Below, one piece after another: positions 7,319 to 58,762 of a stretch of 64,000 nt of DNA (positions within the stretch are counted from its first letter, which is position 1; every line of letters starts with the position of its first letter). The notes beneath the pieces are model-generated. The model saw only the letters and a program-made list of their open reading frames with translations, was not told the origin of the DNA and did not search any database. Source of the stretch: a virus; the IMG/VR virus record IMGVR_UViG_3300042453_004661, positions 1-64,000 of that record. One strand, written 5' to 3'. The translations under genes were made by a program, and so were the position numbers.

Positions 7319-7354
7319 TCCCTGTTCTGCCCTGTAGGCCTGATAATATAGTCT

Positions 7355-8227: not shown

Positions 8228-8235
8228 GGAGACAT

Positions 8236-8649: not shown

Positions 8650-8651
8650 GT

Positions 8652-9452
8652 ATGGCCCACATTAAGACAAAGCACTCAGAATTTGCTGTCGAGAGCCTGA
8701 TTAACGCCTCAAGAGCAATGAGAGAAGGAAGCCACGAAGAGGCCGAAAAGCATTTTGAAGCTGCAGACGCAGCCATCGGAAGGCATGTAGAGTACCTTAA
8801 CAGCATTGGTGAGACTGCAGAAGCAAATCATTCTAAGAACATGTATGAAGGCCAAAAAAGGGTAATGCGTAGTGCCCACAAGCTAAAAATTAAAGATGCA
8901 AAAAAGTCAGAGGCAAGCGTCAACCAAGTAGGTAAGGGCATATTCTTAAAGTCAGAATTTTCTAAACCAAAATCAACCCCATCAGGAAATCCACGGTACT
9001 CCTATAAGGGATTGCATGAACTTCATCCCGAGGACAGGCAGAAAGTTTTGGGAATGAGCGGAAGCCCATCCATGTATCCCGGGGCCGACCATCACAAATT
9101 TGTTTATCCTACCGATTCATCTGGTCGATTAGTTCATTCTCAAAGAATTTCAGCTCCAGCAGGACACGATTTCGAGGCTGCAAAAGCTTCTATGCAAGAA
9201 TCATCTGGTGGTATTAAGTATTCTGAAGGGCAAGGAGTTAGGGTTCATGATCCAGCCCATGAGCTTCACGGAAAACTAGGCCTAGTTCAATTGCCAAATC
9301 CATCATACCCCAATAAGGTTCAAGTCATGTTTGCTGGTGGCAGAAGAGAATTCCTGGACCAATCGAAGATTCAGCCGAGCGGATCAAAGATGGCAAAGGC
9401 TCTTGCCACAGTAATCAACATCAAATCGTACCTAGGTAAGAAAAAGATTTAA
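8652..9452 (+). CDS. His/Lys-rich hypothetical protein, candidate head-cargo protein
   Basis: Contains AKKSE, FLKSE and MAKA, plus an SH3/KOW-like C-terminal segment. Confidence 0.5.
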   Translation: MAHIKTKHSEFAVESLINASRAMREGSHEEAEKHFEAADAAIGRHVEYLNSIGETAEANHSKNMYEGQKRVMRSAHKLKIKDAKKSEASVNQVGKGIFLKSEFSKPKSTPSGNPRYSYKGLHELHPEDRQKVLGMSGSPSMYPGADHHKFVYPTDSSGRLVHSQRISAPAGHDFEAAKASMQESSGGIKYSEGQGVRVHDPAHELHGKLGLVQLPNPSYPNKVQVMFAGGRREFLDQSKIQPSGSKMAKALATVINIKSYLGKKKI

Positions 9453-9454
9453 CT

Positions 9455-10306
9455 ATGTCACGAAAGGGGATGCCAAAACTACCTCAAATTCCAATGAAGG
9501 GGATATCGCAGATCCAAATGCCCAGCAATATACCGCTAGGCACTTTTAATCCCCAGTCTTTTGAAAAGCTTATTGGCGAAATGGGCATTCGCCTTGTCCA
9601 TGCGAGGCCGATACCCAGCCCTCGAGTTAAGGATGTCCGTGGCGATGATATAGATCCATCAGACAACGAGGCTGAAAATGGATTTTTCTATTATGGCCAC
9701 AAAGACTTTACAGGCACATTCATGTCCAATAGTCTTGATCGTCGCTTTAATATAAATGGTACTTTTGATGGCGATCAGGCCGTAATAGTAATCCCAACAA
9801 AATATGCCGATGGGTCCGAAATGGACATTCAGATATTTGATCGCATCATAGCTCCAGATCTTACTGTCCGATACTATCAACGAGTAGAGCATGATCAGAC
9901 AGGAATCGATAGACTTCATTTCCCAGCCGTTAAAGTTGACTTTATTATGGATGCCCATGACCGTCAGTATGCAGAAGGCATCGACTTTCAAATAGACCCA
10001 AGAGGCAGAATCGAATGGCTTCCTGGAGGCAACAGGCCAGGATATGATCCGGTGATGAATTCTGGTGTTATTTACTCAGTAAACTATTATTGTAGACCAG
10101 TTTTTACCGTTATATCTCTACCTCACCAGCTTCGTGCTACACAGACTAGGGGCCCATCCGGTCCCGGGACTCCAAATGTTCAGCATAGATATCCACAACT
10201 TGCCGTTGTAAGGAAAGATTTTGTGCCATTTGATCCAAATGATCAAGTAGGGCCAAGAACTGGCGATGAGCCTGATTATGGATCTGTAAGGGGTCCAAGA
10301 AGATAG
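9455..10306 (+). CDS. Putative neck/head-closure protein
   Basis: Position in the neck cluster and motifs FDRII, EGIDF and YSVNY. Confidence 0.5.
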   Translation: MSRKGMPKLPQIPMKGISQIQMPSNIPLGTFNPQSFEKLIGEMGIRLVHARPIPSPRVKDVRGDDIDPSDNEAENGFFYYGHKDFTGTFMSNSLDRRFNINGTFDGDQAVIVIPTKYADGSEMDIQIFDRIIAPDLTVRYYQRVEHDQTGIDRLHFPAVKVDFIMDAHDRQYAEGIDFQIDPRGRIEWLPGGNRPGYDPVMNSGVIYSVNYYCRPVFTVISLPHQLRATQTRGPSGPGTPNVQHRYPQLAVVRKDFVPFDPNDQVGPRTGDEPDYGSVRGPRR

Positions 10307-10346
10307 TAGTAGACATTCTGCCAGATTTAGGGGATAATTAAATCGT

Positions 10347-11735
10347 ATGTTACCTAAGAATTTCACCATGATGTCGGCCCAAACAGGAAAAGATCATGAC
10401 CATCAGGCTCATGCTGGCCTTATGGCTGATATACATGCTTTAGGCTTAAAACATAAAGTTACTGAAATCAATGGAAAGTATGGATACCCAGAAAAGTCTT
10501 TGATGATAGAGCATAAGGGTCGTCCTCAAGACATTTCTGCATTAGACAATCTTGCCAGAAAATACAAGCAAGAGTCTGTTCTTCATTCTTCATGGGAACA
10601 AGGATCTAATGGCAAAGGCTCCCATAAGAATGAATTACGCTATACAGATGGCCGTCCTTCTGTATTTGGTAAAGGCTACAGAGTCAATCCAGAGGCTGAT
10701 GACTACTATAGTGACCACCCCAAGTTTGGTCGTATTCAAATGCATTTAGACTTTGACTCAAAAGAAGCTACAAAAGCAATTACTAGCCAGGGAAATTTGT
10801 CTATTCAAACTGCAGCCCCGGGCCCGGAAGTTCGCCCTGCCCCGCCAGCAATAGCGAAACCAGAAAAAACAGACAACCCTCCTAGGAAAAAGTTCAAAAA
10901 AGTTCCAGCAAATGCGCCGGAGACATCTCCTGAATCAAATGAGTCCCCAGCAAAGCCAGTAAAAGATCTTAACAAGACTATTCTCCATCAAGATGGCGAA
11001 ACCATGATTGACACTAAGTCTCAAGGGATAGCTATTTCTGCCTTGCCAAAATCAATGATTGCATGGGGAGTGACGCATATGGTCCCCATGAAATTAAATG
11101 AAGTAAAAGACTTGTCTATTGGGGATGCTCGTATTAAAATAGTTAAGAAGAGCCCGGATTTATATGCGGGATGGATTGAAAAAGAAGCCAATATTGGACA
11201 TAAGTTTGAGCGCCTTACCCTTCCACAGCTACTCATCCATCTTCAGAGCGCTCTTGAGACTTATGGCAGAGAAGATCAAGTTTTTGCAGTCCCTAGCAAA
11301 ACCGAGTCAGATTCTATTGAAGAAAAAATTCAACCAAAACTTCAAAAAAAGAACCTGACCGAAATAGGCAAAGCCATCTCTGATGCAATTGATGAAACAC
11401 CTGAATCTTCTGAGGCAGATCGTCAGGCTAAGATCTTAGAAAAGCTTGAAACTCTTAGGGCAAAGATACAGTCTGAAATTATCCCTTCTAAAGACCTTGC
11501 ACAAGGAATAGATGAGCCAGAAGAGTTTTGCTCTGCATGCGAAGCCGAAGCCGAAGAATGTTCATGCTACGAAGGATTAAGCGCACCAAGGCTAGAATTT
11601 GATGGCAAAAAGATCAAAATTTTCTTTAAGTCAGACTGGAGCCCCGAAGACAAAGACAATTTTAAGGATGACTTAAAGAAAAGAGCTGGTATAATCCTTA
11701 AGAAGAGGGAAGGCGCCAGGAAGACAAGAAAATGA
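10347..11735 (+). CDS. Multi-domain protein with an N-terminal SAM-lyase/DUF3293-like domain
   Basis: GKYGYPEKSLMI...LARKYKQESVLH in the first ~135 aa. A CxxCx6CxC motif lies near the C-terminus. Confidence 0.55.
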   Translation: MLPKNFTMMSAQTGKDHDHQAHAGLMADIHALGLKHKVTEINGKYGYPEKSLMIEHKGRPQDISALDNLARKYKQESVLHSSWEQGSNGKGSHKNELRYTDGRPSVFGKGYRVNPEADDYYSDHPKFGRIQMHLDFDSKEATKAITSQGNLSIQTAAPGPEVRPAPPAIAKPEKTDNPPRKKFKKVPANAPETSPESNESPAKPVKDLNKTILHQDGETMIDTKSQGIAISALPKSMIAWGVTHMVPMKLNEVKDLSIGDARIKIVKKSPDLYAGWIEKEANIGHKFERLTLPQLLIHLQSALETYGREDQVFAVPSKTESDSIEEKIQPKLQKKNLTEIGKAISDAIDETPESSEADRQAKILEKLETLRAKIQSEIIPSKDLAQGIDEPEEFCSACEAEAEECSCYEGLSAPRLEFDGKKIKIFFKSDWSPEDKDNFKDDLKKRAGIILKKREGARKTRK

Positions 11736-12919
11736 AAAAACCATTAAATCCAGTAGAAGTGCTTCGGGAGTTGCTCGGTAGAGTACAGGCCCGAAGGGCT
11801 CTTGAACAAGATCCAGAAACCCAAGAATCAATCGACCAAGTCCATGCGGCTGGCGGTGAAATGATGCCCGACTATAAGGGTAAAAGCGTATACATTTCAT
11901 TTGATGGCGATAATATTGGGAATGCAGTCGCTCGAGCCGAGAATATGGACGATGAGCAAACCCTTGCCCAGGTATCGCAAAAGATTCAGGCAGGGCAAGA
12001 TCTGTTTGTTAATTTTCTCACCCAACATCAGGGCAGGCTGATTCAGGCAGGGGGAGATGAAGGATTAGGAATTTGTAACTCAAACTGCCTTGTAGACCTT
12101 GAAGAATTCAGACAACAATACAAGGAATTAGTTGGAGCTACAGTTACCGTAGGGGTAGGCACAAAAATATCAGAAGCTACCAAGGCCAGGATGCTAGGCA
12201 AGCTTCGTGGAAAAGATCAAGTTTGCCATTTTGACGGATCAACAGAAAAAGAAATTGAGCTTAGAAGCCAAACAGAAGACCCAGAAGCCAAGAAGCTTGG
12301 CCAGGCTGGTCTGATTGGCGGTGTGCCTAAATTTGGGATTGATCAAGATCAGTCACAAGATCAGGACTGGCAACAAGACTATGACGCACCAGAGCAAGAA
12401 GAGTCGTCAGGCATTTCCGATCATGCAAGTCGATTTGGCGAAGCAGAAGACCCAGGCGTAGAAGACGAATACGATATGCCTTCAGGGCAAGAGCCAGAGG
12501 CCGAACAGCAGGCTCCTGACTCCCAAGATGAATTTGAAGACCCATGGGACCAGGCCAAGCATGAGCGAGAAGGCAGTAAGCCCCAATCCAAAGAAAGAAG
12601 GATTGTAGATAAAGAAACTGGAAGAGAATTTGTTCTTCATGGTCTAGACCACGGAGAGTCAGAAGAAGATTTCCAGCCAGAAATGCAACAGCCGGAGGAA
12701 GAAGAGCAAGAGCCTCAACAGGCCCAAGAGTCAGAAGAGCCCCAGCAAGAAGAGCAAGAGCTTTCTGATGAAGAAAAAGGATATGGGGACTACACTGATC
12801 TTCCTTTTGAAGAGCGTGATGATTTACAAAATCGATTGATTGCAGAAAAAATCGCCAAAGAAGAGGGTGTTAATCCAAATTTTCTTTATCTCGCCTCTAA
12901 AAAATTATCGAGGGATTAA
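11732..12919 (+). CDS. mCpol (minimal CRISPR polymerase)/GGDEF-like nucleotide cyclase with an acidic tail
   Basis: YISFDGDNIG...IQAGGDEG...VTVGVG...ARMLGKLRGKDQV. Confidence 0.75.
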   Translation: MKKPLNPVEVLRELLGRVQARRALEQDPETQESIDQVHAAGGEMMPDYKGKSVYISFDGDNIGNAVARAENMDDEQTLAQVSQKIQAGQDLFVNFLTQHQGRLIQAGGDEGLGICNSNCLVDLEEFRQQYKELVGATVTVGVGTKISEATKARMLGKLRGKDQVCHFDGSTEKEIELRSQTEDPEAKKLGQAGLIGGVPKFGIDQDQSQDQDWQQDYDAPEQEESSGISDHASRFGEAEDPGVEDEYDMPSGQEPEAEQQAPDSQDEFEDPWDQAKHEREGSKPQSKERRIVDKETGREFVLHGLDHGESEEDFQPEMQQPEEEEQEPQQAQESEEPQQEEQELSDEEKGYGDYTDLPFEERDDLQNRLIAEKIAKEEGVNPNFLYLASKKLSRD

Positions 12920-15427
12920 ATGGACTTTCGGGAGGCTGTTCGCAGACATCATGAGCATCTTAAAGATCCCACTAAAGAAAGTGGCAATGAATCTGCAGAA
13001 AATTTCATCAATATCCTACAAAGAGCAGAAGATCGCACACACCATGCATCCTCTCTTAGCTGGCTAAACGATCTTTTTCAAGATGGTCATCTATCTCAAG
13101 ATCAGCAAGATAGGATCATTAACCTTAAGCATATTCCTAAGACCAATCAATCCTCACAGCTCGTAGACGGCATAATGGAAAATATGCCTGATGAAAAAAG
13201 AAAACAAATACTTAACGACAAGTTAGGAATTACGGGCGGTAAAAAGATTCGTGATGTAGAAAAAGATCACGACTGGAATAACTGGGAATCCCCTCCAACA
13301 GGTGATGAATCCGATCCCTACGCAAGATTTTATAAAGGCATTGATTGGGAATCGTCAAAGCATCTTACGGATGATCAGGCCGAGCATATCAAGAGACATG
13401 GAAGCGTTGAGCAAAAGCTAAATCTATTTTCAAATCCACATATAGATCCAAGACATGGAATTGAAATGTGGAATAAATGGAGCGACAACGATACTCACCA
13501 CGGATACCATAGGCATCATTTATCAGATTATTTGATGCGCCATCAGGAAGATAACATAGAGGATGACATAGAAGATAGGGCTTATACAATAGCTCAAAAT
13601 CGTCTTCCAATTGATAAGTGGGCCAAAGAGACTTTGGCAAAAAATGGCTTAAAATATTTTAGACATAAAGATGAGCTTTTAAATCATATCAATGACAATC
13701 TAGACCTTTACGATACTGTAGGCCCAAATCCTGGATTCAATAAAGATGCCCCCGTAGACCCGGCTAATAATCCAGAAACAATAGATTACGCAGACCCCAA
13801 CAATCCTCAATCCAAGACTATTAACGATCACCCAAATCTTCCCCAGCTTCTCCAGCAGGCCGATAATCAGCTCATCAACACAAAAGGCTATCCTAGCGTC
13901 ATAGGGCAAAGAAGTGAAGGAATCCCAAAACTTCATGAGGGCGAATGGCATCATGATGCCGTAAGGGAAATGTCAAAAAATATTGCCGAAGACCTCCGTG
14001 AAGAAGCCATTTCTTCAGCTTATAAAAATGAAGACTATCTTCCAAAGCATCTCAGGGGCAAGATCTCTTCAATTAAAAATGAATTAACATCAAAATCTCA
14101 AATAGATACAAAAAACGCATTTGCCAACAACGGCTTAGATATTTCTAAATTTTCTTCAGATCATGAATACGCCCCTGGCTTGTACCATCTAAACATGCTC
14201 AAGGACCATACTGAAAATAATAAAGGCAAAATAGATCTAGGATCTATGGTCAAAAAATATCCGGACATGAAAGATGCCCTAAAGAGTGCATTCGGAGACA
14301 AGCAGTCATTGTCCTCAAAAGATATTGATTCAAAAATAAAATCTTTGCCAAAAACAAAATATTCAATTTCTGCAAGGAGCTGGGAGCCACAAAATCCTCA
14401 AAATCTTAACAGAAGAAATCAGCTTGTTTTAAGGCTAGAGCATACTCCCGAATCCATGGCCCAAATCAAATCAGATCCATCACTAGAAAATATATTCAAT
14501 AAGGTGCATAAGTCGTCAAAAGCTTCAGATCATCCTGTAGGGACAAACACGATAGGATGGGCAAGAATAGATACTTCCGACCCTTCTCATTGGGTAATAG
14601 ATGAGACTCAATCTGATTTTAGCGAATCATTGATTAGAACAATATCTGAAAATGAATACAATCCATCAAAGAGGCAGTCTATAGTAGATGGGATTCAAAA
14701 AATTAGAGACATTCATGGAAACTGGCAAGAAAATCTAATGAGCCATATTGTTGATTTGGCTAAAAAGCATGGGGTTGAAAAGCTTTCTATTCATACCCCG
14801 GAATCAAAAGCAAGTCAGCTTGGCGCCAGCAGAATCCATAGTGCGTATAGGGAAAACTATCAGAAAACCCCCAAGAGCATGGGATTCTCAAAAACAGAAG
14901 GCCTATCTTTGCCATTGACCGACCTTGGGAGAATAGCTTTTACTAAAAAAATCCCATACGATGATAAAGTAAGACAAGATACTCATTATTTTGCTATGGG
15001 CCATCATAGACAGCGATACCATGTACATAAAGCAATTGCAGATAGGATTAGATCAGAAAGCCCTGAAATTGCTGCCGAACACGATGAGACCGCAAAAAAG
15101 CATAAGATGCTTTTTTTCTCGCACCGAAGAAAAGGCCTACGAGTAAAGGCTCCGATTTTTATTGATAACCCACCAAACGATCTCAACGATAGAAGAAGAA
15201 GCGTATCATTTCATGAGCCTCCTCTTAACATGGAAGGGTTGTTAGCGTCAAAAAAAGATTTAAAAGAAGAACCTTCTGGTTTTGTAGGATATCATTCAGA
15301 CTCTATTGTTGATGGAAGCATGAAGCCCGAGTCTTTGCCAGCCCACACCCTAGAGATTGGGCAAAAAATGAAGAAATCAGTAAGGCTAGGGAAAATTCTA
15401 GCTCGTAAAATTATGGAGGCATTATGA
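12920..15427 (+). CDS. Large His-rich protein with a DETQSD motif domain, candidate internal virion/polyvalent protein
   Basis: IGWARID...WVIDETQSDF, with MKKS near the C-terminus. Confidence 0.45.
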   Translation: MDFREAVRRHHEHLKDPTKESGNESAENFINILQRAEDRTHHASSLSWLNDLFQDGHLSQDQQDRIINLKHIPKTNQSSQLVDGIMENMPDEKRKQILNDKLGITGGKKIRDVEKDHDWNNWESPPTGDESDPYARFYKGIDWESSKHLTDDQAEHIKRHGSVEQKLNLFSNPHIDPRHGIEMWNKWSDNDTHHGYHRHHLSDYLMRHQEDNIEDDIEDRAYTIAQNRLPIDKWAKETLAKNGLKYFRHKDELLNHINDNLDLYDTVGPNPGFNKDAPVDPANNPETIDYADPNNPQSKTINDHPNLPQLLQQADNQLINTKGYPSVIGQRSEGIPKLHEGEWHHDAVREMSKNIAEDLREEAISSAYKNEDYLPKHLRGKISSIKNELTSKSQIDTKNAFANNGLDISKFSSDHEYAPGLYHLNMLKDHTENNKGKIDLGSMVKKYPDMKDALKSAFGDKQSLSSKDIDSKIKSLPKTKYSISARSWEPQNPQNLNRRNQLVLRLEHTPESMAQIKSDPSLENIFNKVHKSSKASDHPVGTNTIGWARIDTSDPSHWVIDETQSDFSESLIRTISENEYNPSKRQSIVDGIQKIRDIHGNWQENLMSHIVDLAKKHGVEKLSIHTPESKASQLGASRIHSAYRENYQKTPKSMGFSKTEGLSLPLTDLGRIAFTKKIPYDDKVRQDTHYFAMGHHRQRYHVHKAIADRIRSESPEIAAEHDETAKKHKMLFFSHRRKGLRVKAPIFIDNPPNDLNDRRRSVSFHEPPLNMEGLLASKKDLKEEPSGFVGYHSDSIVDGSMKPESLPAHTLEIGQKMKKSVRLGKILARKIMEAL

Positions 15428-15648
15428 GAATTGGAAGATTAGAAATCGGAATTAGCAGAAAGCCAAGAACCAAAGCCATTGCATGGAGCCTAGATGTTTC
15501 ACTTACCAGGCCATCCTGCGGGTGCATCATGCTCGAGCTTGGGCCTATTCATATTACCTGGCTTTCTAGCGGTGAAAATGGATGCTATTCTTTTTCAATT
15601 TTTCACATTAAGAGAAAGAAGAAAGCCAAGAAGGGTAAGAAAAAATGA
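15424..15648 (+). CDS. Hypothetical protein
   Basis: SD ggagg; ATGA overlaps on both sides. Confidence 0.55.
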   Translation: MRIGRLEIGISRKPRTKAIAWSLDVSLTRPSCGCIMLELGPIHITWLSSGENGCYSFSIFHIKRKKKAKKGKKK

Positions 15649-16133
15649 AAAGCTTAAAAGGACAGCTTTTGTCGGATTTAACCCAGGTTGCTCATGATCT
15701 ATTTAAAAGCATCGATGAAAAAGGATGCGAATGCTCTCATTCTCAGGGCGATCTTCCGGATGATGAATACGAAGTATCTCTCTGGGATGATGGAACAGTA
15801 GAGGTCCTCCAATCTGACGATGAGGATCTCGATACCGCTCCTGTGTTCGAGGCTCTTTCTGATATGGGCTTTGAAGAAGATGAAGACGAGCCTCTCGAGA
15901 AGTTTAATTTCAAGTCTAAACATAAATCTAAAAAAGGTGGGCTAACAGAGGCTGGCCGTAAGGCATATAACAAGGCTACTGGCAGTAACCTTAAGCGCCC
16001 CCAGCCAGAAGGTGGGAAGCGTAAAAAGTCATTTTGCGCCAGGTCTGCTGGACAGATGAAGATGCATGGCATCAACTGTTCTAAGACCCCAGACAAAAGG
16101 GTATGCTTGGCTCGTCGTAGGTGGAAGTGCTAA
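15645..16133 (+). CDS. Acidic N-terminal region plus a DUF6321-like basic C-terminal domain
   Basis: GGLTEAGRKAYN...NLKRP...RKKSFCAR...RRWKC, preceded by PLEKF. Confidence 0.65.
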   Translation: MKSLKGQLLSDLTQVAHDLFKSIDEKGCECSHSQGDLPDDEYEVSLWDDGTVEVLQSDDEDLDTAPVFEALSDMGFEEDEDEPLEKFNFKSKHKSKKGGLTEAGRKAYNKATGSNLKRPQPEGGKRKKSFCARSAGQMKMHGINCSKTPDKRVCLARRRWKC

Positions 16134-16925
16134 ATGAAATTTGTTGTGGGCGTAGATCGCACCCTGGCCATGGCTATTGCGGAAGCTGCAAATCAGATCA
16201 ATGAACAGACCCAGGCTGCCGTCAATGAGATAGTGGCCCAGACTGCTATTGATGCTTTTGAGCAAGCAAAAGTCTACGCCATGAGCCGACTAGACACGAC
16301 AGCGAGGCAATATACGGATGCTCTCGAGTTTTCTCAAGTTGCTCCAGGTATTTTTTCGGTGGGCCTCCGGGAAGAAGCCAAGCATCTAGAGGAAGGCTAC
16401 GGCGGTTTTGATATGAAGCCTGGCCTGCTCAAAAATGCCAAGAAAGTATCCAAGTTAGGATTTAGGTACAGGTCTATCCCAATGGAGCAAAAAGGCAAGG
16501 GTAAACCTGGCACTACTCGAGGCGACATGCTTAGGGATTTAAGGACTTTGAGAAAAGCATTTGGTGATAAAGGAATTACCAAAAATGCATCGGGTAAGGC
16601 AATTTTGGGCAAGGCACTTACATTTAACAGGAACTCACTTGGAAGATGGTCAGCATCGGGGGCTGGGGCAGGCGCTCTGCCAAAGCAAGAGCTAGGCCAA
16701 ATGCCTATCCATGAAAATCTATCTGGAGTAGTTAAGTATCAATTCCAGTACAAAAGCGGAAAAGTCGGAAGTCAATTTGTTGTCTTTAGGACTGTATCTG
16801 AAAATCCAAACGCCAAAGGTAAATGGAAGCATCCAGGATTCGGCGGGATTAGGGCCTTTAATGATCTTGAAAACTGGGTAATTAGACAGCTAGAAACCAA
16901 GCTTAGAGAGCTTTTTGGCCAGTAG
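16134..16925 (+). CDS. Putative neck/tail-completion protein
   Basis: GFDMKPGLL and FRTVSE...WKHPG, as in large-myovirus neck proteins; genomic position. Confidence 0.55.
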   Translation: MKFVVGVDRTLAMAIAEAANQINEQTQAAVNEIVAQTAIDAFEQAKVYAMSRLDTTARQYTDALEFSQVAPGIFSVGLREEAKHLEEGYGGFDMKPGLLKNAKKVSKLGFRYRSIPMEQKGKGKPGTTRGDMLRDLRTLRKAFGDKGITKNASGKAILGKALTFNRNSLGRWSASGAGAGALPKQELGQMPIHENLSGVVKYQFQYKSGKVGSQFVVFRTVSENPNAKGKWKHPGFGGIRAFNDLENWVIRQLETKLRELFGQ

Positions 16926-16939
16926 AGTATAATAATCCT

Positions 16940-17857
16940 ATGAGCATACCTCTTTTAGATATTCATATCAAGTACCTAGTAGAGTACACTATAAAGGTCG
17001 TTCGCTCTAATCCGGACAAATATCTAAAAGAAATTTTTGGGGATGCCAGGCTGGCTCCTCATGACAATCTGTACGGAAACAGAATGCTTGATTCGGTCAA
17101 AAAATGGATCGAAACAACTAAAATAAATGTGGTGTTAGGTTATGACTTATCTCAAATGGAGCTTCCGGCTGTCACGGTTAATCTTGCGTCGTCTTCGCCA
17201 TCTTTGCCGTTTTTAGGCGATGTGGGAGACATATTGGAGGAAGAAGTTGTCCAATATGATCAGGAAATAGTAGTGGATGATTTTCAGGCCGAGTCTCTCG
17301 AGTATTCTGAAGACAAGCTTTTTAGATACCTTGAACTGAAAGATAGTATGGACCCAGCCAAGGCCGAGCTGGTACTCCCTGGCCTGCACTTAAAAGACGC
17401 AAAAGATCAGGAATTCCTTATTGGGTTTGATGATTACAAAAATAAGCTAACAGTTTCTGAGCTTTCCATACCAGTTGCAGACATAGACGCATCTACCCTA
17501 AAAGTCGTAAGTCCTTTAAAACAAAGGCGTTATCGTGGTGGGGTCATGCAATTCCAGGATACGGTTTCCGTCACTATCCATACCCATCAAAACAGGAATG
17601 AAGGAACTTATCTTTGGGCTATAGTGATTTGGGGATTACTCAAGTTTAGGCCACTTTTGATTGAGACTTTTGGCTATGATCTTGCCATGCCCAGCTCTTC
17701 TGATTTATCCATAGATCCCAGCTACATGGGAAATGCTGTCTGGGTTCGTCAGGTTACACTTACAGGTAAGACAGTATGGAGCTGGGAAGGTCCTAAGATG
17801 CAGGATATTATCGGTATGCTTTTGACAATAAATGTTGGACGGCGAGAAGATAAATGA
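16940..17857 (+). CDS. Putative tail terminator/completion protein
   Basis: LPAVTVNL motif; lies two genes upstream of the sheath gene. Confidence 0.5.
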   Translation: MSIPLLDIHIKYLVEYTIKVVRSNPDKYLKEIFGDARLAPHDNLYGNRMLDSVKKWIETTKINVVLGYDLSQMELPAVTVNLASSSPSLPFLGDVGDILEEEVVQYDQEIVVDDFQAESLEYSEDKLFRYLELKDSMDPAKAELVLPGLHLKDAKDQEFLIGFDDYKNKLTVSELSIPVADIDASTLKVVSPLKQRRYRGGVMQFQDTVSVTIHTHQNRNEGTYLWAIVIWGLLKFRPLLIETFGYDLAMPSSSDLSIDPSYMGNAVWVRQVTLTGKTVWSWEGPKMQDIIGMLLTINVGRREDK

Positions 17858-17889
17858 GCGTCTACACTAATAATGGGAGAATAAACTGT

Positions 17890-18120: not shown

Positions 18121-18132
18121 GGGGGAAAACAA

Positions 18133-19920: not shown

Positions 19921-19933
19921 TTGAGAGGTAAAT

Positions 19934-20224: not shown

Positions 20225-20225
20225 T

Positions 20226-20444: not shown

Positions 20445-20464
20445 TCGCATCCACAAAATGCAAC

Positions 20465-20494: not shown

Positions 20495-20499
20495 ATTTA

Positions 20500-53425: not shown

Positions 53426-56400
53426 ATGGCTATCCCGCCCAAAAAAATCTATACCCAGATGCAAAAGTCTGATTCAGATGGCCAGGCTCCTATCTCTTTT
53501 AATTTTAAAAGCCTTAAGCCGGAGCAGAAAGCAAAATTCCTTCAAAATCCTAATCTTCATCCAGATATACTTCATAAGTTAAGTGAGGATGATAATTTAA
53601 AGTTGTCAATAGCAGAGAATCCTAATACTCGCTCAGACACACTTCATAGGCTAAGCGATAGTGAGTATGGGATTGTAAGGGGTGCAGTAGCAGAGCATCC
53701 AAATACCCACCCAGACACGCTTCATAAGTTAAGTGAAGATAGGGATGATGATGTGAGGAGGATGGTAGCAGAGAATCCCAATGCCCATCCGGATACAATT
53801 CATAAGCTGAGTGGGGATAAGAATTCGCGTGTAAGGGAGGCAGTAGCAAAGCATCCTAACACCCATCCAGATATACTTCATAAGTTAAGTGGGGATAATT
53901 CTTTTATTGTAAAAGGAGCAGTAGCGAGAAATCCTAATGCCCATCCAGACACGCTTCGTAAGTTGAGTGAAGATGAGGGGGATTGGTCTGTAAGGGAGGC
54001 GGTAGCAAAGCATCCTAATATTCATCCGGACACGCTTCATAGGCTAAGTGAGAGTGAGTATGAGACTGTAAGGGAGGCAGTAGCAAGGAATCCAAATGCC
54101 CACCCAGATATACTTCATAAGTTGTGGAAAGACAAGTGGCCAAGAGTAAGATCTGCAGTAGCAGAGCATCCTAATACCCGCTCAGATATACTTTTTGGAT
54201 TATGTTACGATAGGGATTTTGAAGTAAGGGCTGGGGCAGCAAGAAATCCAAATATTCGTCCAGCTCTACTTGATAAGTTAAGTAGGGATACTCATTGGCC
54301 TGTAAGACAGGCAGCAGCAGAGCATCCTAATAACCATCCGGATATGCTTGATAAGTTAAGTAGGGATGTGGAGTGGGATGTAAGAGAAGCAGCCCGTAAA
54401 AACCCTAACCATCCAAATAACCAGATGAAAAAGTCTGATTCAGATAGCCAGACCCCTATCTCTTTTAATTTTGCAAACCTTAAGCCGGAGCAGAAAGCAA
54501 AATTCCTTCAAAACCCCAATGTTCATCCTAATGCGCTTCATGCTTTAAGCGGGGATGAGAATCATGAAGTAAGATTTGCAGTAGCAAAGCATCCTAATGC
54601 CCATCCAGATACACTTCATGGACTAAGTGAAAGAGAAGATGAGAATGAAAGTATAAGGCAGGCAGTAGCAAAACATCCAAATACCCATCCAGACACGCTT
54701 CATAAATTGAGTAAGGATGACGATTTAAAGCGGTTTGTGGCAATTCACCCAAATACCCATCCAGACACGCTTAATAGGTTAAGTAAAGACAAGTGGTCAG
54801 GAGTAAGAAGGGAGGTAGCAAGGAATCCAAATGCCCATCCAGATCTACTTCATAAGCTGAGCGAGGACAGGGATGTGTATGTAAGGGAAGGGGCAGCAAG
54901 GAATCCAAATGCCCATCCAGATCTACTTCATAAGTTAAGCGGGGATGAGAATCATGAAGTAAGATTTGCAGTAGCAAAGCATCCTAATGCCCATCCAGAT
55001 ACACTCCATAAGTTGAGTGGGGATAGCTTCGACTACAGCATAAGGGAGGCGGTAGCAATTCATCCCAATACCCATCCAGACATACTTCATAATTTAAGCG
55101 AGGATGAACATCTTTATGTAAGAGATGCAGTAGCAAAGAATCCAAATACCCGTCCAGATACTCTTCATAAATTGAGCGGGGATGAGGATGTAGATATAAG
55201 ACAGATAGTGGCCAGGAGTGCTAATGCTGGTCCAGAAACACTTCATAAGCTGAGTGGGGATAGGTCTTTTATTGTAAAAATGGAAGTGGCAAGGAATCCT
55301 AATACTCACCCAGATACACTTCATAAGCTGAATGGGGATGAGTCTTTTACTATAAGAGAGGCGGCCCGTAAAAACCCTAACCATCCAAATAACCAGATGA
55401 AAAAGTCTGATTCAGATAGCCAGACCCCTATCTCTTTTAATTTTGCAAGCCTTAAGCCGGAGCAGAAAATAAAATTCCTTCGAAACCCCAATGTTCGGCT
55501 TGATCTACTTCAGCAGTTAAGTGAGGATGAGGATGGAGATGTAAGGCAGGCAGTAGCGAAACATCCTAATACCCATCTAGATATAATTCATAAGTTGAGT
55601 GGGGATGAGCATAGCGGTACAAGGGCTATAGTAGCAAGGAATCCCAATATCCGTCCAAATATACTTCATGCATTAAGTCACGATAGGGATTTTGAAGTAA
55701 TGGCTGGGGCAGCAAGGAATCCAAATGCACATCCAGAAATACTTCAGAGGTTGAGTGAACATGAACATCCGTATGTAAGAATAGCGGTAGCAGAGAATCC
55801 TAATACCCATCCAGATATACTTCATAAGCTTAGTCAGGATGCGTATCAGCCTGTAAGAATGGCGGTAGCAAACCATAAAAATACCCACCCAGATATACTT
55901 AATGTGCTGAGTGATGATAAGGACGAGCTTATAAGAGAGGGGGTAGCAAAGAATCGCAATACCCATCCAGATACAATTCATAAGCTGAGTGGCGATAAGG
56001 ATGAGGATGTAAGATATGCGGTAGCAAGGAATCCAAATGCCCACCCAGATATACTTCATAGGCTGAGTCAAGACGATAATAGGTATGTAAGACAGGCGGT
56101 AGCACGACATCCCAGCACCCATCCAGACACGCTTCATAAATTAAGTGGGGATGAATTTTCTAGCGTAAGACAGGGATTGGCAATGAATCCTAATACTCAT
56201 CCGGATATGCTCAATAAGTTGGGCGGGGACAGAGATGGAGATGTAAGAGAAGCAGTAGCAAAACATCCAAATACCCATCCAGACACGCTTCGTAGGTTAG
56301 GTGGAGATTTAGATGTAGATGTAAGATATGCAGCCCTTCAACATCCTAACCATCCAAATAACCAGATGAAAAAGTCCGGTTCTACTCAGTTTGAAGACCC

Positions 56401-58762
56401 ATGGGACCAGGCTAAATACGATAGGGAAGAAGAGCAGTCTCTTGATAAAGCAGAATTCCTCACCGATGAAGATATTGCTTCAGATGACAAGGCTGATGGC
56501 ATTTATTTAATACCCCATAGCCATGAAAAAGATAGGATTGCTTCTTCAAGCAAATTTCATGGCACAGAGCTTAAGAGCGCATCAACACTATACAGGCATT
56601 ACAAGCATACTCCCCACCATCCTGTATCTCTTGGTCTCAAGTATTTGATTCATAGAATAGAAAATGCAAAAGACTATGACGAGGGGAATGCAGAAGAGCT
56701 AGATAATGATTTCTTGCAATTACATCAAGCGGGTAAGGCTTCAGAGAAAAACGGGTGGGTTAAATCTAGAGATTTGCAAGAATTTTATGAGAATCATGGC
56801 AAAAGACTAATTCCCCAGCTTATTGGTCACAAAAATAAGCTAGCAGAAGTCATCATGAAGCATCATCCGGAGTCAGTTGTCTATATTGATGGAAAACCGC
56901 ATGTAGCATTGACCAGGGGTCTAAATACTAAGATGCCAACCCAAGACCATGCATTGGCTAGCTATGCAGATAAAGACAATACTGGATTTGGCAGTCATAT
57001 GCATCATAGGTTTGTACCTCTTGATAATCTTTGGTATTCATATGCGTACGGCCCATACCCAGCTACAAGCCCAAGTTTTGGAAACGAACACGAATATCTT
57101 GTTTCTCCCCATAAGATCGTACCAGCAAAAAAAGAAGATATTAAAGAGATAGCCGGGAATAGAACTCTGTCACATGGATATATGCCTAATCTGGAAAGTG
57201 ACATAATAAATAACAAATTGTCTTTGGAAGATTTGCGTAAGGTTCATCCAGCATTGCTAGGAAGGGTCGTAATGAATTCTCTGGGCAATCGAGACCAGGA
57301 AACTCATGAGAAAGTTATTGATCATGTTTTGGACAAATTAGATCAACAAATTAAGTCTCCCAACATGAATAGCGACCTGGTCGGTTCCTTGCTCAATTCT
57401 TTGAAAAATGGCACTCTCAATACCTCAAAAGACATGACACATAGGGTTATACAAAAGATATCTGAAATTAACCATCGAGATCATGGGCATGTCTTGGCAA
57501 ATGATGCAACTTCCAAAATGAATGAAATAATAAGTAGGGAAGCGGGCGGCCTTCACGAAAAGACCTACAGAACTGCATTCGATCATGCGAAGTCGGCTTT
57601 TACATTAGAGGCTCAGAATTTAATGTTTGGCCTTGCTCAAAATCCATTCAGTCCTCAAGATGTGCTTCATGAATTATCCAATAGCGAAGTGCCTGGCATG
57701 AAAGAAAAAGTGGCAAGCAATTCAAATACTCATTCCGACACGCTCCATATCCTGTCTAATTTAGAAGACAATAGAGTTAAGCTTGCTGTTGCAGATAATC
57801 GATCTACTCACCCCAATACACTTCATGATATGGTAAAAAAGACAAAAACTCCAAAATCAATACACGGAACTTTGCCTCTTCCGGAAGATCATGATAATCT
57901 TAAGTTGCATAAAGTAATTGCTACCAATCCAAATACAATGGATGAAACTCATCATTTATTGATGGATAAATACCCATACTCAAGCCTTCCCGCACAAGCG
58001 ACTGATATCGGCATGCGTATTGCTTCTAATCCAAATATTTCAGATTCAATGATGAATAAGTTAAGCGTGAGTAGTTCGCCTGGAGTAAGGCGGAATATTG
58101 CCAGTAACTTAAAAACTAATGCAGATCTACTCCATAAACTAAGTGAAGATAATGATGATCATGTTAAATTCGCAGTAGCAAGCAATGAGAATACCCGCTC
58201 AGACACACTTCATAAACTAAGTGAAGATAGATATAATTTTGTAAGAACTGCAGTAGCAGAGCATCCCAATACCCATCCAGATACTCTTCATGCGATGAGT
58301 GAAGATCCAGTTGATGGAGTAAGGCGATCAGTAGCGGGAAGGTTAAATACTCGTCAAGATACGCTTCATAAAATGAGTGAGGATAAGTGGGCAGGAGTAA
58401 GGCAAGAGGTAGCAAGGAATCGCAATGCCCATCCAGACACACTTCATAAATTGAGCAATGATGAATATCTTGGCGTAAGAGAAGTGTTAGCAAGAAATCC
58501 AAGTATCCGCCAGGACACGCTTCATGTTTTAAGTAAGGATAAGGAAGATATGATAAGGCGGTCGGTAGCAAATCATCCTAATACCCATCCAGATACACTT
58601 CATGAGCTTAGTCAGGATTATAATGAGTTTGTAAGGGGGTCGGTGGCAAAAAATCCAAATACTCACCCAGACCTACTGGATAAGCTAAGTAAAGATGAAA
58701 GTCATGATGTAAGATGGGCAGTAGTAAATAATCCTAACTATAAGCCTAAGAATATGGGATAA
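53426..58762 (+). CDS. LRV/HEAT-like repeat polyprotein with an internal ADP-ribosyltransferase domain
   Basis: About 46 repeats of ~26 aa ([NH]PNTHPDxLHKLSxDxxxxVRxAVAx). ART motifs LTRG, LASYA and NEHEYLV. Confidence 0.8.
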   Translation: MAIPPKKIYTQMQKSDSDGQAPISFNFKSLKPEQKAKFLQNPNLHPDILHKLSEDDNLKLSIAENPNTRSDTLHRLSDSEYGIVRGAVAEHPNTHPDTLHKLSEDRDDDVRRMVAENPNAHPDTIHKLSGDKNSRVREAVAKHPNTHPDILHKLSGDNSFIVKGAVARNPNAHPDTLRKLSEDEGDWSVREAVAKHPNIHPDTLHRLSESEYETVREAVARNPNAHPDILHKLWKDKWPRVRSAVAEHPNTRSDILFGLCYDRDFEVRAGAARNPNIRPALLDKLSRDTHWPVRQAAAEHPNNHPDMLDKLSRDVEWDVREAARKNPNHPNNQMKKSDSDSQTPISFNFANLKPEQKAKFLQNPNVHPNALHALSGDENHEVRFAVAKHPNAHPDTLHGLSEREDENESIRQAVAKHPNTHPDTLHKLSKDDDLKRFVAIHPNTHPDTLNRLSKDKWSGVRREVARNPNAHPDLLHKLSEDRDVYVREGAARNPNAHPDLLHKLSGDENHEVRFAVAKHPNAHPDTLHKLSGDSFDYSIREAVAIHPNTHPDILHNLSEDEHLYVRDAVAKNPNTRPDTLHKLSGDEDVDIRQIVARSANAGPETLHKLSGDRSFIVKMEVARNPNTHPDTLHKLNGDESFTIREAARKNPNHPNNQMKKSDSDSQTPISFNFASLKPEQKIKFLRNPNVRLDLLQQLSEDEDGDVRQAVAKHPNTHLDIIHKLSGDEHSGTRAIVARNPNIRPNILHALSHDRDFEVMAGAARNPNAHPEILQRLSEHEHPYVRIAVAENPNTHPDILHKLSQDAYQPVRMAVANHKNTHPDILNVLSDDKDELIREGVAKNRNTHPDTIHKLSGDKDEDVRYAVARNPNAHPDILHRLSQDDNRYVRQAVARHPSTHPDTLHKLSGDEFSSVRQGLAMNPNTHPDMLNKLGGDRDGDVREAVAKHPNTHPDTLRRLGGDLDVDVRYAALQHPNHPNNQMKKSGSTQFEDPWDQAKYDREEEQSLDKAEFLTDEDIASDDKADGIYLIPHSHEKDRIASSSKFHGTELKSASTLYRHYKHTPHHPVSLGLKYLIHRIENAKDYDEGNAEELDNDFLQLHQAGKASEKNGWVKSRDLQEFYENHGKRLIPQLIGHKNKLAEVIMKHHPESVVYIDGKPHVALTRGLNTKMPTQDHALASYADKDNTGFGSHMHHRFVPLDNLWYSYAYGPYPATSPSFGNEHEYLVSPHKIVPAKKEDIKEIAGNRTLSHGYMPNLESDIINNKLSLEDLRKVHPALLGRVVMNSLGNRDQETHEKVIDHVLDKLDQQIKSPNMNSDLVGSLLNSLKNGTLNTSKDMTHRVIQKISEINHRDHGHVLANDATSKMNEIISREAGGLHEKTYRTAFDHAKSAFTLEAQNLMFGLAQNPFSPQDVLHELSNSEVPGMKEKVASNSNTHSDTLHILSNLEDNRVKLAVADNRSTHPNTLHDMVKKTKTPKSIHGTLPLPEDHDNLKLHKVIATNPNTMDETHHLLMDKYPYSSLPAQATDIGMRIASNPNISDSMMNKLSVSSSPGVRRNIASNLKTNADLLHKLSEDNDDHVKFAVASNENTRSDTLHKLSEDRYNFVRTAVAEHPNTHPDTLHAMSEDPVDGVRRSVAGRLNTRQDTLHKMSEDKWAGVRQEVARNRNAHPDTLHKLSNDEYLGVREVLARNPSIRQDTLHVLSKDKEDMIRRSVANHPNTHPDTLHELSQDYNEFVRGSVAKNPNTHPDLLDKLSKDESHDVRWAVVNNPNYKPKNMG
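53459..56377 (+). repeat. Three ~970-bp macro-units, each with 11 ~78-bp repeats
   Basis: QMxKS boundaries at 53459, 54425, 55397 and 56366. Linkers 54392-54524 and 55364-55496 are nearly identical. Confidence 0.9.

What the first reader, a model, noticed from the sequence alone, without database searches (positions are those of the whole stretch)
11885..12240. Phage-encoded stand-alone mCpol/GGDEF-like cyclase within the virion gene region
Seen: DGDNIG and GGDEG metal-binding motifs plus xGVG...GK in a ~120-aa domain, followed by a long acidic tail. No CARF or TM effector gene is adjacent. Established: mCpol is a minimal Cas10-like palm domain of bacterial nucleotide-signalling defence; in Panoptes it makes a cyclic dinucleotide that keeps an effector off. 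Inference: the phage may make decoy or repressing cyclic nucleotides to mute signalling immunity. This protein lacks clear flanking K-S sites; its link to the cargo class is the shared FEDPWDQAK motif.
Basis: partly seen in the sequence, partly recalled or inferred. Interest (0 to 1): 0.8.

Follow-up and report, generated by a model that had tools for sequence, protein, structure and literature searches.

The report
Phage neck-module mCpol nucleotide cyclase
An uncultured freshwater phage carries, among its head-to-tail joining genes, an apparently working copy of mCpol, the small signal-nucleotide enzyme so far studied only in a bacterial anti-phage guard, so the phage may make immune-type nucleotides itself, though activity and purpose are untested.

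Summary
ORF 11732-12919 (+, 395 aa) carries an mCpol palm domain at residues 52-166. Pfam PF18182 scores 51.4 bits against a cut-off of 26.4. The AlphaFold model (pLDDT 91) matches the solved Panoptes OptS mCpol best (TM 0.84-0.86). Both metal-binding acidic motifs are intact and conserved across the family, and a symmetric dimer is predicted.

A 200-residue acidic tail follows. It ends in a conserved C-terminal peptide.

The gene is not an isolated oddity. It belongs to a virus-only clade of 451 clusters at E<=1e-10. This clade holds a fixed place in the neck gene block of Mx1-like myoviruses.

In relatives the same domain is fused to a Mu-type portal plus pyrophosphatase, or to NUDIX, SAM-lyase-like, GNAT, ParB_N or kinase modules. 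These fusions are the signature of virion-delivered polyvalent proteins.

No CARF or transmembrane effector is adjacent, so this is not a Panoptes system.

The decoy or anti-Panoptes reading remains inference. Three points argue against it:
- No sponge or nuclease gene was found in the 75%-complete record.
- The gene is core rather than accessory.
- The Myxococcus phage Mx1 ortholog has lost its catalytic residues.

This scan has noted the family before on other DNA, in at least 46 genomes.

The parts
11732..12919 (+). Whole gene, 395 aa (P0001). Its ATG overlaps the stop of the upstream gene (ATGA at 11732-11735). Its TAA stop is at 12917-12919.
11750..11848 (+). N-terminal helical hairpin (residues 7-39), conserved in the close subfamily
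   Evidence: AlphaFold model helices 7-25 and 28-39; alignment A1
11885..12229 (+). mCpol palm domain (residues 52-166)
   Evidence: PF18182 51.4 bits; model pLDDT 97-98 over this part; Foldseek top hits OptS mCpol 9pd0, 9mnr and 9nwn
11903..11911 (+). D58-G59-D60, the first metal-binding motif. D58 aligns with the catalytic Asp6 of KpOptS.
   Evidence: alignment; paper passages; D58 in 192 of 200 and D60 in 197 of 200 family domains
11975..11977 (+). Ser82. It aligns with the base-contact residue S30 of KpOptS. Serine is the adenine-type choice.
   Evidence: S in 172 of 200 domains; lies in the predicted dimer interface
12050..12061 (+). G107-G108-D109-E110 hairpin. D109 aligns with the catalytic Asp57 of KpOptS.
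   Evidence: G108 in 199, D109 in 195 and E110 in 189 of 200 domains
12242..12304 (+). Two conserved helices after the domain (residues 171-191; E174 and K188 invariant in A1)
12317..12781 (+). Acidic E/Q/D-rich tether of variable length and sequence (residues 196-350)
12533..12559 (+). FEDPWDQAK short motif inside the tether
   Evidence: relative P0004 carries two copies of a like motif
56390..56416 (+). Second copy of FEDPWDQAK, in the 1778-aa repeat polyprotein gene 53426-58762
12782..12916 (+). Conserved C-terminal peptide YGDYTDLPF...EEGVNPNFLYLASKKL (residues 351-395); candidate docking signal
   Evidence: profile of the last 55 residues of 10 close relatives finds the extreme C-termini of further members: P0027 8.3e-9, P0090 3.3e-6, P0009 to P0011 <=5e-4
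10968..11732 (+). C-terminal part (residues 208-462) of upstream gene 10347-11735. It is a conserved partner lying directly upstream of mCpol in relatives, with four invariant Cys. Fold unknown.
   Evidence: fold searches gave nothing clear
12920..15427 (+). Next gene, 835 aa, no family. It is in the same reading frame as mCpol, separated only by the TAA, and is not conserved next to mCpol in relatives.
16134..17857 (+). Two conserved downstream genes (263 aa and 305 aa): an HK97 gp10-like lead and a tail or neck terminator lead

Best explanation
The gene encodes an active, dimeric mCpol-type nucleotide cyclase built as 'enzyme, floppy acidic tether, short C-terminal peptide'.

Shown by computation:
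- A genuine mCpol palm fold with the full catalytic set, conserved across a large virus-only clade.
- A predicted symmetric dimer. In it the base-contact Ser82 of one chain faces the GGDE strand of the other, as in the solved OptS enzyme.
- A fixed gene position in the neck block of Mx1-like myoviruses.
- Fusion in relatives to a portal protein and to other enzyme modules.

Inferred:
- Two ATP are condensed into a cyclic di- or oligo-adenylate. Serine at the base-contact site is the adenine-type choice.
- The protein is made late and is probably carried in the particle through its C-terminal peptide, then delivered with the DNA.
- Its nucleotide product interferes with host cyclic-nucleotide signalling. 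The most attractive target is guard systems of the Panoptes kind, which stay silent only while their own nucleotide is present.

My odds: active cyclase about 0.8; virion-associated about 0.55; acts on host immune signalling about 0.4; specifically anti-Panoptes about 0.15-0.2. The confidence given is for the statement as a whole, without the last step.
For: Domain and fold:
- PF18182 51.4 bits against cut-off 26.4.
- AlphaFold model of residues 1-200 with 127 aligned sequences: pLDDT 91.1, pTM 0.75.
- The five best Foldseek PDB rows are all OptS mCpol chains: E 5e-7 to 4e-6, TM by target 0.82-0.86, rmsd 1.7-2.0 over 115-117 columns, 22-23% identity. GGDEF and Cas10/Csm1 palms come next.

Catalysis:
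- The catalytic Asp6 and Asp57 of KpOptS and its base contacts S30 and N34 (passages of PMC12657218) align with D58, D109, S82 and Q86.
- Of 200 domain instances in 197 of 198 stored proteins, 178 keep D-D-G-G-D-E exactly. Most of the 22 others are conservative (AGDE in 6, GGDD in 3).
- One relative places an inorganic pyrophosphatase next to mCpol.

Dimer:
- ipSAE 0.67 against a best control of 0.02. That mark was reached by 20 of 30 proteins solved as pairs of one chain and by 1 of 23 solved as single chains.
- The runs agree in at least 68% of contacts and pLDDT is at least 76.
- The interface covers residues 66-86, 103-112 and 145-150.
- A like complex (OptS) has been solved, so the pass may be from memory.
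- Three relatives carry two mCpol domains in tandem, one of them degenerate, as in Cas10.

Clade:
- 72 of 72 word-index hits carry PF18182, on contigs up to 326 kb.
- 672, 451 and 43 cluster representatives at E<=1e-3, 1e-10 and 1e-30.
- 35 IMG/VR loci.
- No relative in a pattern scan of 185,579 species genomes.

Position. 31 of the 35 loci have a BLASTP-detectable mCpol ORF (L027/L029 and L026/L030 are near-duplicates). Among those 31:
- the 16134 homolog is present in 26, and within 1 kb downstream in 21;
- the 16940 homolog is present in 22;
- the tail sheath is present in 20.

Virion link. 55 long members were chosen from the 198 stored proteins. In them mCpol co-occurs with GNAT (9), DUF5661 (8), NUDIX (3), ParB_N (3), SAM-lyase/DUF3293 (2) and PI3/4-kinase (2). 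P0125 is Portal_Mu 76-472 + InPase 599-731 + mCpol 769-881.

The C-terminal peptide is conserved at the extreme end of many members.

The gene is near-identical in contigs of two further freshwater runs, with 2 differences in 1371 bases and the stop codon unchanged.
Against: - No product, activity, expression or packaging has been measured for any member.
- Sequence identity to OptS is only 22-23%, and phmmer E is only 0.007 in a PDB-sized search.
- OptS lacks the GGDE motif that this clade keeps, so the product may differ.
- NCBIfam's mCpol model scores 39.4 bits, just under its cut-off of 40.
- The only cultured relative, Myxococcus phage Mx1, keeps the syntenic protein (BLASTP E 3e-25 to family member P0066) with DGD changed to SID, GGDE to LGAV and KLRGK to QINGG. 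The protein can therefore persist without catalysis.
- A core gene at a fixed position in a broad clade is unlike typical accessory counter-defence genes.
- No Tad2-like, STIV_B116/AcrIII-1-like or 2H phosphoesterase gene was found in the record. The phage thus shows no known activity that would trip a Panoptes guard. However, the record is only 75% complete, and the Acb2-type search rang in no control either.
- This copy is not fused to any portal or packaging domain.
- The virion link is contextual only.
Confidence: 0.5

Rival explanations
1. Mainly a structural or assembly protein of the neck or capsid. The palm domain would be a retained building block, and the nucleotide chemistry would be dispensable or vestigial.
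For: - Fixed position between the neck-type genes in most relatives.
- The Mx1 ortholog has lost the catalytic residues. It keeps the overall architecture, including the helix after the tether and the C-terminal block.
- The non-catalytic C-terminal peptide is conserved.
Against: - 178 of 200 domains keep the exact D-D-G-G-D-E set, and most of the rest are conservative changes. Such purifying selection on metal ligands is not expected for a pure building block.
- The base-contact Ser is kept in 172 of 200.
- One relative is fused to a pyrophosphatase.
Confidence: 0.12
2. An active cyclase that rewires ordinary host physiology rather than immunity. It would flood the cell with a c-di-AMP-like or c-di-GMP-like messenger. 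Possible aims are to change envelope, motility or osmotic state, or to block superinfection.
For: - Same enzymology as the best explanation.
- Phage GGDEF cyclases exist as annotations: uncultured Caudovirales phages, Bacillus phage G gp350 and Bacillus phage SP-15 in BFVD, and an intact GGDEF 'nucleotide cyclase' in Mx1.
- A core gene fits a general takeover role.
- Iyer et al. 2017 (PMC5512222, passages seen) raised cyclic-nucleotide use by invasive elements in general terms.
Against: - The fold is closest to the immune mCpol and Cas10 branch, not to housekeeping GGDEF or DAC enzymes.
- The modules fused to it in relatives (SAM-lyase-like, NUDIX, GNAT, ParB_N, kinase) have a counter-defence or polyvalent-protein flavour.
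Confidence: 0.2
3. The product signals to a phage-encoded receptor. It would be a private phage circuit, for example timing of lysis or exclusion of rival phages, with the conserved upstream Cys4 protein as sensor or regulator.
For: - A homolog of the C-terminal part of gene 10347 lies directly upstream of mCpol in 9 of 31 loci, often with overlapping stop and start codons, as here.
- It has four invariant cysteines and no known fold.
Against: - The partner is absent or undetected in 19 of 31 loci.
- No known nucleotide-sensor family was found in it.
- Its best fold match, Z 6.0, lies within the noise range stated by the tool.
Confidence: 0.1
4. Not a cyclase but a template-independent or nucleic-acid-directed nucleotidyl transferase. 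It would act on the genome end that sits in the neck, in the manner of Thg1-type palm enzymes.
For: - mCpol, GGDEF and Thg1 share the palm fold (PMC12657218 passage).
- The gene lies among neck genes, and one relative is fused to a portal.
Against: - The nearest structures are cyclases.
- The predicted symmetric dimer with facing active sites is the cyclase arrangement.
- No nucleic-acid-binding domain was detected.
Confidence: 0.06

Closest known systems
Panoptes OptS / mCpol (KpOptS, PDB 9mnr and 9pd0; ECOR31 mCpol, 9nwn; Pfam PF18182; PMC12657218, PMC12657230, PMC13577387)
   Same: - Single minimal palm domain of about 115 residues.
- Best structural match: TM by target 0.82-0.86.
- The catalytic Asp pair and the base-contact Ser align.
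- A dimer with shared active sites is predicted.
   Different: - Encoded by a virus, in a virion gene block. It is not in a bacterial defence locus.
- No 2TM-beta or CARF-TM effector beside it.
- It keeps the canonical GGDE hairpin, which the paper says is nearly absent from OptS.
- It carries an N-terminal hairpin, a 200-residue acidic tail and a C-terminal peptide.
- Only 22-23% identity.
Polyvalent proteins of phages and conjugative elements (Iyer et al. 2017, PMC5512222; passages seen)
   Same: - Relatives string mCpol together with unrelated enzyme modules and a portal.
- The paper notes GGDEF domains in such proteins. It proposes cyclic-nucleotide interference with host responses.
   Different: - This copy is a single-enzyme protein, with the other modules in separate genes.
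- The term mCpol does not occur in that paper.
- No MuF or portal domain is present in this protein.
Cas10 (Csm1/Cmr2) cyclase palm of type III CRISPR
   Same: - PF22335 palm2 hit, 31.8 bits against a cut-off of 27.
- GGDD/GGDE hairpin.
- Serine-type adenine contact.
- Csm1 structures are among the fold matches.
   Different: - One palm only.
- No HD, zinc-ribbon or helical domains.
- No CRISPR context.
- No RNA-guided activation.
Myxococcus phage Mx1 protein WNM70340 (OR576727.2, 33963-35369)
   Same: - Same gene position between the neck-type genes and the tail sheath.
- Homologous to family member P0066, BLASTP E 3e-25.
- It is the only hit among 50,697 phage records.
   Different: - The catalytic motifs are degenerate (SID, LGAV).
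- The mCpol score is only 21 bits, below the cut-off.
- It has a C-terminal block that this phage's protein lacks.

Membership tests
mCpol domain (Pfam PF18182) | Score over Pfam's gathering threshold across the whole model | tested here: met
   51.4 bits against 26.4, model positions 1-112 of 114; 54.6 bits in the six-frame search
mCpol domain (Pfam PF18182) | Minimal palm fold matching solved mCpol structures | tested here: met
   Model pLDDT 91.1; 9pd0, 9mnr and 9nwn are the best rows, TM by target 0.79-0.86, rmsd 1.7-2.2
mCpol domain (Pfam PF18182) | Two catalytic acidic positions (KpOptS Asp6 and Asp57) | tested here: met
   D58 and D109 align with them; conserved in 192 and 195 of 200 family domains
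mCpol domain (Pfam PF18182) | Synthesis of a cyclic di- or oligonucleotide | not testable with these tools
   Needs an enzyme assay
NCBIfam NF033576 mCpol domain-containing protein | Score over NCBI's curated cut-off | tested here: not met
   39.4 bits against a cut-off of 40, E 8.1e-10, positions 2-116 of 118: 0.6 bits short
Panoptes defence system (types I and II) | mCpol gene paired with a 2TM-beta (OptE) or CARF-TM effector gene | tested here: not met
   No CARF or other sensor family in 15 neighbouring products; no hydrophobic segment above 1.6 in any ORF from 8652 to 18120
Panoptes defence system (types I and II) | Encoded in a bacterial genome as host defence | tested here: not met
   The record is a 124,585-base virus contig. 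No relative was found in the pattern scan of 185,579 species genomes. That scan used only two peptide patterns.
GGDEF diguanylate cyclase (PF00990) | Match to the GGDEF model | tested here: not met
   Not among the families listed at E<=1; no PF00990 match in the whole record
GGDEF diguanylate cyclase (PF00990) | Guanine-type Asn at the base-contact position | tested here: not met
   Ser82 stands at the position that aligns with KpOptS S30. The paper states that Ser goes with adenine and Asn with guanine.
Cas10 of type III CRISPR | Two palm domains with HD and accessory domains, in a cas operon | tested here: not met
   Only one palm hit, PF22335 at 31.8 bits; no cas genes among the neighbours
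Polyvalent proteins (Iyer et al. 2017) | Several unrelated enzymatic domains in one polypeptide | tested here: not met
   This protein has a single known domain. The feature is met in relatives: P0083 is NUDIX + mCpol + SAM-lyase, and P0125 is portal + InPase + mCpol.
Polyvalent proteins (Iyer et al. 2017) | Packaging into the virion and delivery into the host | not testable with these tools
   Only context is available: the neck gene block, a portal fusion in one relative and the C-terminal peptide

The most novel reading that the evidence does not exclude
The phage brings its own mCpol, possibly pre-loaded in the particle, to make the very nucleotide that Panoptes-type guards use as their 'all is well' signal (2',3'-c-di-AMP, cA3 or a relative). 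The effector would then stay off while the phage drains or ignores host signals. This would be the 'anti-anti-anti-defence' that the Panoptes authors expected to exist (PMC12657218, discussion passage). It would be encoded as a core gene of a whole clade of large environmental myoviruses.
Probability: 0.17. Interest if true: 0.9.

Novelty: new variant of a known kind. Interest (0 to 1): 0.65.

Why it matters
mCpol has been studied only as the sensor half of a bacterial guard system. A virus-only clade of the same enzyme, with its active site conserved, would show that phages also write immune-type nucleotide signals rather than only erasing or sponging them. The clade has hundreds of clusters and is fixed in the particle-building genes.

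The claim is directly testable, because the domain is small, soluble-looking and has solved relatives. A simple NTP assay and co-expression with Panoptes, CBASS or type III reporters would decide it.

The layout 'enzyme, acidic tether, C-terminal peptide', the portal fusion, and the catalytically dead copy in cultured phage Mx1 also offer a handle on how large phages load and deliver enzymes.

Tried and rejected
Protease processing at Lys-Ser type joints. The only K-S next to the domain (K51-S52) is not conserved in the close relatives, which have GR-D, GA-D and GE-N there. I found no support for cutting of this protein.

A 'carrier' made in two lengths by frameshifting, as earlier scan notes describe for relatives:
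- This protein ends right after its C-terminal peptide.
- The C-terminal block of the long relatives (seen in P0066 and Mx1) was not found anywhere in the 124.6-kb record.
- The next ORF is in the same frame behind a single TAA, but it has no detectable similarity to the tails of the stored relatives.
- I did not show read-through.

Fold of the conserved upstream partner (residues 208-462 of gene 10347):
- AlphaFold with 17 sequences gave pLDDT 70.7.
- Foldseek PDB gave no row at E<=0.001.
- VIA-align wide gave a best Z of 6.0 (YkuJ), inside the tool's stated noise range.
- A row for SPO1 Acb4 at E 0.44 is chance level and is not used.

Cultured phages:
- Megablast of 9000-20000 against 50,697 phage records gave no match.
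- tblastn of P0001 against the same records gave no match.
- No PHROG family matched.

Known sponge or nuclease families in the record: PF11195, PF08960 and PF13563 gave no match. PF13876 gave no match either, but it rang in no control genome, so that search says nothing.

Promoter and terminator scan of 7000-20500: counts were below the shuffled expectation. The only strong hairpin is at 20465-20493. It was not used beyond noting that nothing separates the genes.

Expression: no RNA holder was listed.

Literature:
- 'mCpol' + 'phage' gave 22 papers.
- In three of them (PMC12657230, PMC12657218, PMC13577387) I searched for phage-encoded or stand-alone mCpol terms and found no mention.
- 'minimal CRISPR polymerase' + 'polyvalent' gave 0 papers.
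- 'phage-encoded' + 'diguanylate cyclase' + 'virion' gave 19 papers, none on this by title or abstract start.
- The Mx1 genome note (PMC10720576) does not mention the cyclase.
- Burroughs et al. 2015, which defined mCpol, is not held. It may mention phage copies.
- Supplementary files were not consulted.
Full report
WHAT IS THERE

The window is the first 64 kb of a 124,585-base IMG/VR virus record that is estimated 75% complete. Nearly all long ORFs lie on the + strand. PHROG hits include a tail sheath (18133-19920, E 5e-40), a tail fibre and a virion structural protein. The closest cultured phage is Myxococcus phage Mx1. SPO1-like Bacillus phages are more distant.

The finding's span, 11885-12240, is residues 52-170 of ORF 11732-12919 (395 aa, P0001).
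- DGDNIG at residues 58-63
- GGDEG at residues 107-111
- VGVG...GKLRGK at residues 140-161

A tail follows with 39 E, 24 Q and 23 D in 200 residues, pI 4.05.

The gene's ATG overlaps the stop of the upstream gene (ATGA). Its TAA is followed at once by the ATG of an 835-aa ORF in the same frame.

IS IT mCpol?

Yes, by sequence and by fold.
- Pfam PF18182 gives 51.4 bits (cut-off 26.4) over nearly the whole model.
- Cas10 palm2 (PF22335) gives 31.8 bits.
- GGDEF (PF00990) does not appear, even at E<=1.
- NCBIfam's mCpol model falls 0.6 bits short of its cut-off.
- PADLOC gives only weak Cas10 and CARF_HEPN_mCpol rows.

An AlphaFold model of residues 1-200, built on 127 aligned relatives, has pLDDT 91.1. 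Its five best PDB matches are all chains of the solved Panoptes OptS mCpol: TM by target 0.82-0.86, rmsd 1.7-2.0 over 115-117 columns. GGDEF cyclases and Cas10/Csm1 come next.

IS IT LIKELY ACTIVE, AND ON WHAT?

The Panoptes paper names Asp6 and Asp57 of KpOptS as catalytic. It names S30 and N34 as base contacts, with Ser going with adenine and Asn with guanine (passages of PMC12657218). In the HMMER alignment to OptS these positions fall on D58, D109, S82 and Q86.

I counted conservation over 200 domain instances in 197 of the 198 proteins stored at that point:
- D58 is kept in 192, D60 in 197, G108 in 199, D109 in 195, E110 in 189 and S82 in 172.
- 178 of 200 keep D-D-G-G-D-E exactly.
- The 22 exceptions are mostly AGDE (6) or GGDD (3).
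- Truly degenerate copies are few. They are the Mx1 protein and the second domains of three proteins that carry two mCpol domains in tandem. That is the Cas10 arrangement, in which one palm is inactive.

A two-copy complex prediction supports a symmetric dimer:
- The score is 0.67 against a best control of 0.02.
- The mark was reached by 20 of 30 solved homo-pairs and by 1 of 23 single chains.
- The runs agree in at least 68% of contacts, and pLDDT is at least 76.
- Ser82 of one chain touches residues 103-106 of the other, next to the GGDE hairpin.
- This matches the paper's description of a pocket built from two protomers.
- Because the OptS oligomer is solved, the pass may reflect likeness only.

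From this I infer an adenine-based cyclic di- or oligonucleotide. I have not shown it.

HOW WIDESPREAD, AND WHERE IN THE GENOME?

- The word-index search found 72 relatives, all with PF18182, on contigs up to 326 kb.
- The exhaustive search found 672, 451 and 43 cluster representatives at E<=1e-3, 1e-10 and 1e-30.
- IMG/VR gave 35 loci on contigs up to 176 kb.
- A pattern scan of one genome from each of 185,579 prokaryote species gave no relative. That scan used two peptide patterns only.
- Among 50,697 cultured-phage records only Mx1 matches, and only when queried with a long family member.

I called ORFs in the 35 loci and compared them with the window's ORFs. Thirty-one loci have a detectable mCpol ORF of 194-1992 aa. 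Among those 31:
- 26 hold a homolog of gene 16134, 21 of them within 1 kb downstream;
- 22 hold a homolog of gene 16940;
- 20 hold the tail sheath;
- 13 hold a homolog of the virion protein gene 9455;
- 12 hold a homolog of gene 10347, 9 of them directly upstream.

Two pairs of loci are near-duplicates.

Atlas look-ups give leads only. They point to a tail or neck terminator for 16940 and an HK97 gp10-like connector for 16134.

The mCpol gene is therefore a core, fixed-position member of the head-to-tail joining block. The two genes between it and 16134 in this phage (12920-15427 and 15645-16133) are local insertions, each seen in 1 of 31 loci.

LINK TO VIRION-DELIVERED ENZYMES

I picked 55 long members (about 500 aa or more) from the 198 stored proteins. 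In them mCpol co-occurs with GNAT (9), DUF5661 (8), NUDIX (3), ParB_N (3), SAM-lyase/DUF3293 (2), PI3/4-kinase (2), a pyrophosphatase (1) and a Mu-type portal (1).
- P0125 is Portal_Mu 76-472 + InPase 599-731 + mCpol 769-881.
- P0083 is NUDIX + mCpol + SAM-lyase-like.

Several of these partner modules are separate genes in this phage:
- the SAM-lyase-like N-terminus of the upstream gene 10347;
- the kinase part of 50243;
- a block of 51563;
- residues 26-87 of 58820.

This is the pattern described for polyvalent proteins. That paper noted GGDEF domains and suggested interference with host nucleotide responses (PMC5512222, passages). The word mCpol does not occur in it.

That motif itself is confirmed:
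- there are two copies in the window;
- they share a 23-base exact run;
- relative P0004 carries two like copies.

ARCHITECTURE OF THIS COPY

After the domain come, in order:
- two conserved helices (171-191);
- an acidic tether of variable length;
- a conserved extreme C-terminal peptide (YxDY[ST]D...[DN]PxF...L).

A profile of the last 55 residues of ten close relatives finds the very ends of further members: P0027 at 8e-9, P0090 at 3e-6, and P0009 to P0011 at 5e-4 or better. The layout 'enzyme, flexible linker, short terminal peptide' resembles the way cargo is docked in other protein shells. That comparison comes from my own knowledge, not from a test here.

WHAT ARGUES AGAINST THE DECOY READING

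- The Mx1 ortholog keeps the position and architecture but has SID, LGAV and QINGG in place of DGD, GGDE and KLRGK. The protein can survive without chemistry. Mx1 also has a separate intact GGDEF gene near its capsid gene.
- A core gene of a broad clade is unlike the patchy distribution usual for counter-defence genes.
- I found no Tad2-like, AcrIII-1-like or 2H phosphoesterase gene in the record. The record is incomplete, and the Acb2-type search was uninformative.
- No activity, expression or packaging data exist. No RNA run was listed.

INDEPENDENT SAMPLES

Contigs of two further freshwater runs from another study carry the gene with 2 differences in 1371 bases. One is a synonymous change at 11806. 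The stop at 12917-12919 is unchanged. These contigs become unlike the window exactly upstream of 11730. This fits the 69%-identical upstream protein P0200, which is recorded on a contig of the same length. The start of the gene is thus a mosaic boundary.

VERDICT

The identity is an mCpol-type cyclase in a virion gene block with no effector. That identity is supported.

It is not a Panoptes system and not a classical GGDEF. It works like OptS or Cas10 at the level of the active site and dimer. In genomic role it belongs with phage polyvalent or cargo enzymes.

The purpose is open. I put about 0.8 on catalysis, 0.55 on virion association, 0.4 on immune-signal interference and 0.15-0.2 on a specific anti-Panoptes decoy.

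The scan has noted this family before on other DNA: 68 notes in at least 46 genomes. This copy adds several things:
- a short form without the long carrier;
- the terminal peptide;
- the portal-pyrophosphatase fusion;
- the tandem-domain relatives;
- the adenine-type serine;
- the dimer prediction.

Noticed in passing
window 12917-12922: The mCpol ORF and the following 835-aa ORF (12920-15427) are in the same reading frame, separated only by TAA and then ATG. This could be termination-reinitiation coupling, a gene fission, or rare read-through giving a 1231-residue product. The stop is unchanged in contigs of two other runs.
   Followed up: partly
window 11730: Contigs of two independent freshwater runs match the window almost perfectly from 11730 onward but are unlike it upstream. 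The upstream gene there is only about 69% identical at protein level (P0200). A recombination boundary therefore sits exactly at the mCpol start codon.
   Followed up: partly
window 10347-11735: The upstream gene combines a weak SAM-lyase/DUF3293-like N-terminus (residues 14-80, below cut-off) with a conserved C-terminal part. That part has four invariant cysteines and no recognisable fold. In relatives the two halves occur in different genes.
   Followed up: partly
L036 (Myxococcus phage Mx1, OR576727.2) 95-826 and 16885-18291: Mx1 has an intact GGDEF 'nucleotide cyclase' just upstream of its capsid genes. It also has a catalytically degenerate mCpol-family protein, annotated only as hypothetical, in the neck block. 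A PI3/4-kinase-like 'kinase' and a 1479-aa 'NUDIX hydrolase' lie beside them.
   Followed up: partly
proteins P0077, P0102, P0106 (metagenomic relatives): Three family members carry two mCpol domains in tandem, one of them with degenerate metal ligands. This recalls the active and inactive palm pair of Cas10.
   Followed up: no
protein P0125 (metagenomic relative, 936 aa): A single polypeptide combines a Mu-type portal, an InPase-family inorganic pyrophosphatase and an mCpol domain with a GGDD motif.
   Followed up: no
window 5854-7318: A subtilase-family (Peptidase_S8, 82 bits) protease gene overlaps the start of a NinI-like metallophosphatase gene, just upstream of the tail-fibre-like gene. 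Neither was examined further.
   Followed up: no
window 15645-16133: A 162-aa protein whose C-terminal 70 residues are DUF6321 (69 bits). In PHROG profiles this domain sits at the end of much longer phage proteins. In locus L023 a 963-aa protein with this domain directly follows the mCpol gene.
   Followed up: no
window 58895-59080 (residues 26-87 of ORF 58820-61822): A roughly 55-residue module is 45-62% identical to a segment found behind the mCpol domain in at least 17 stored relatives. It is possibly the DUF5661 seen in 8 of 55 long members. I did not check which family it is.
   Followed up: no
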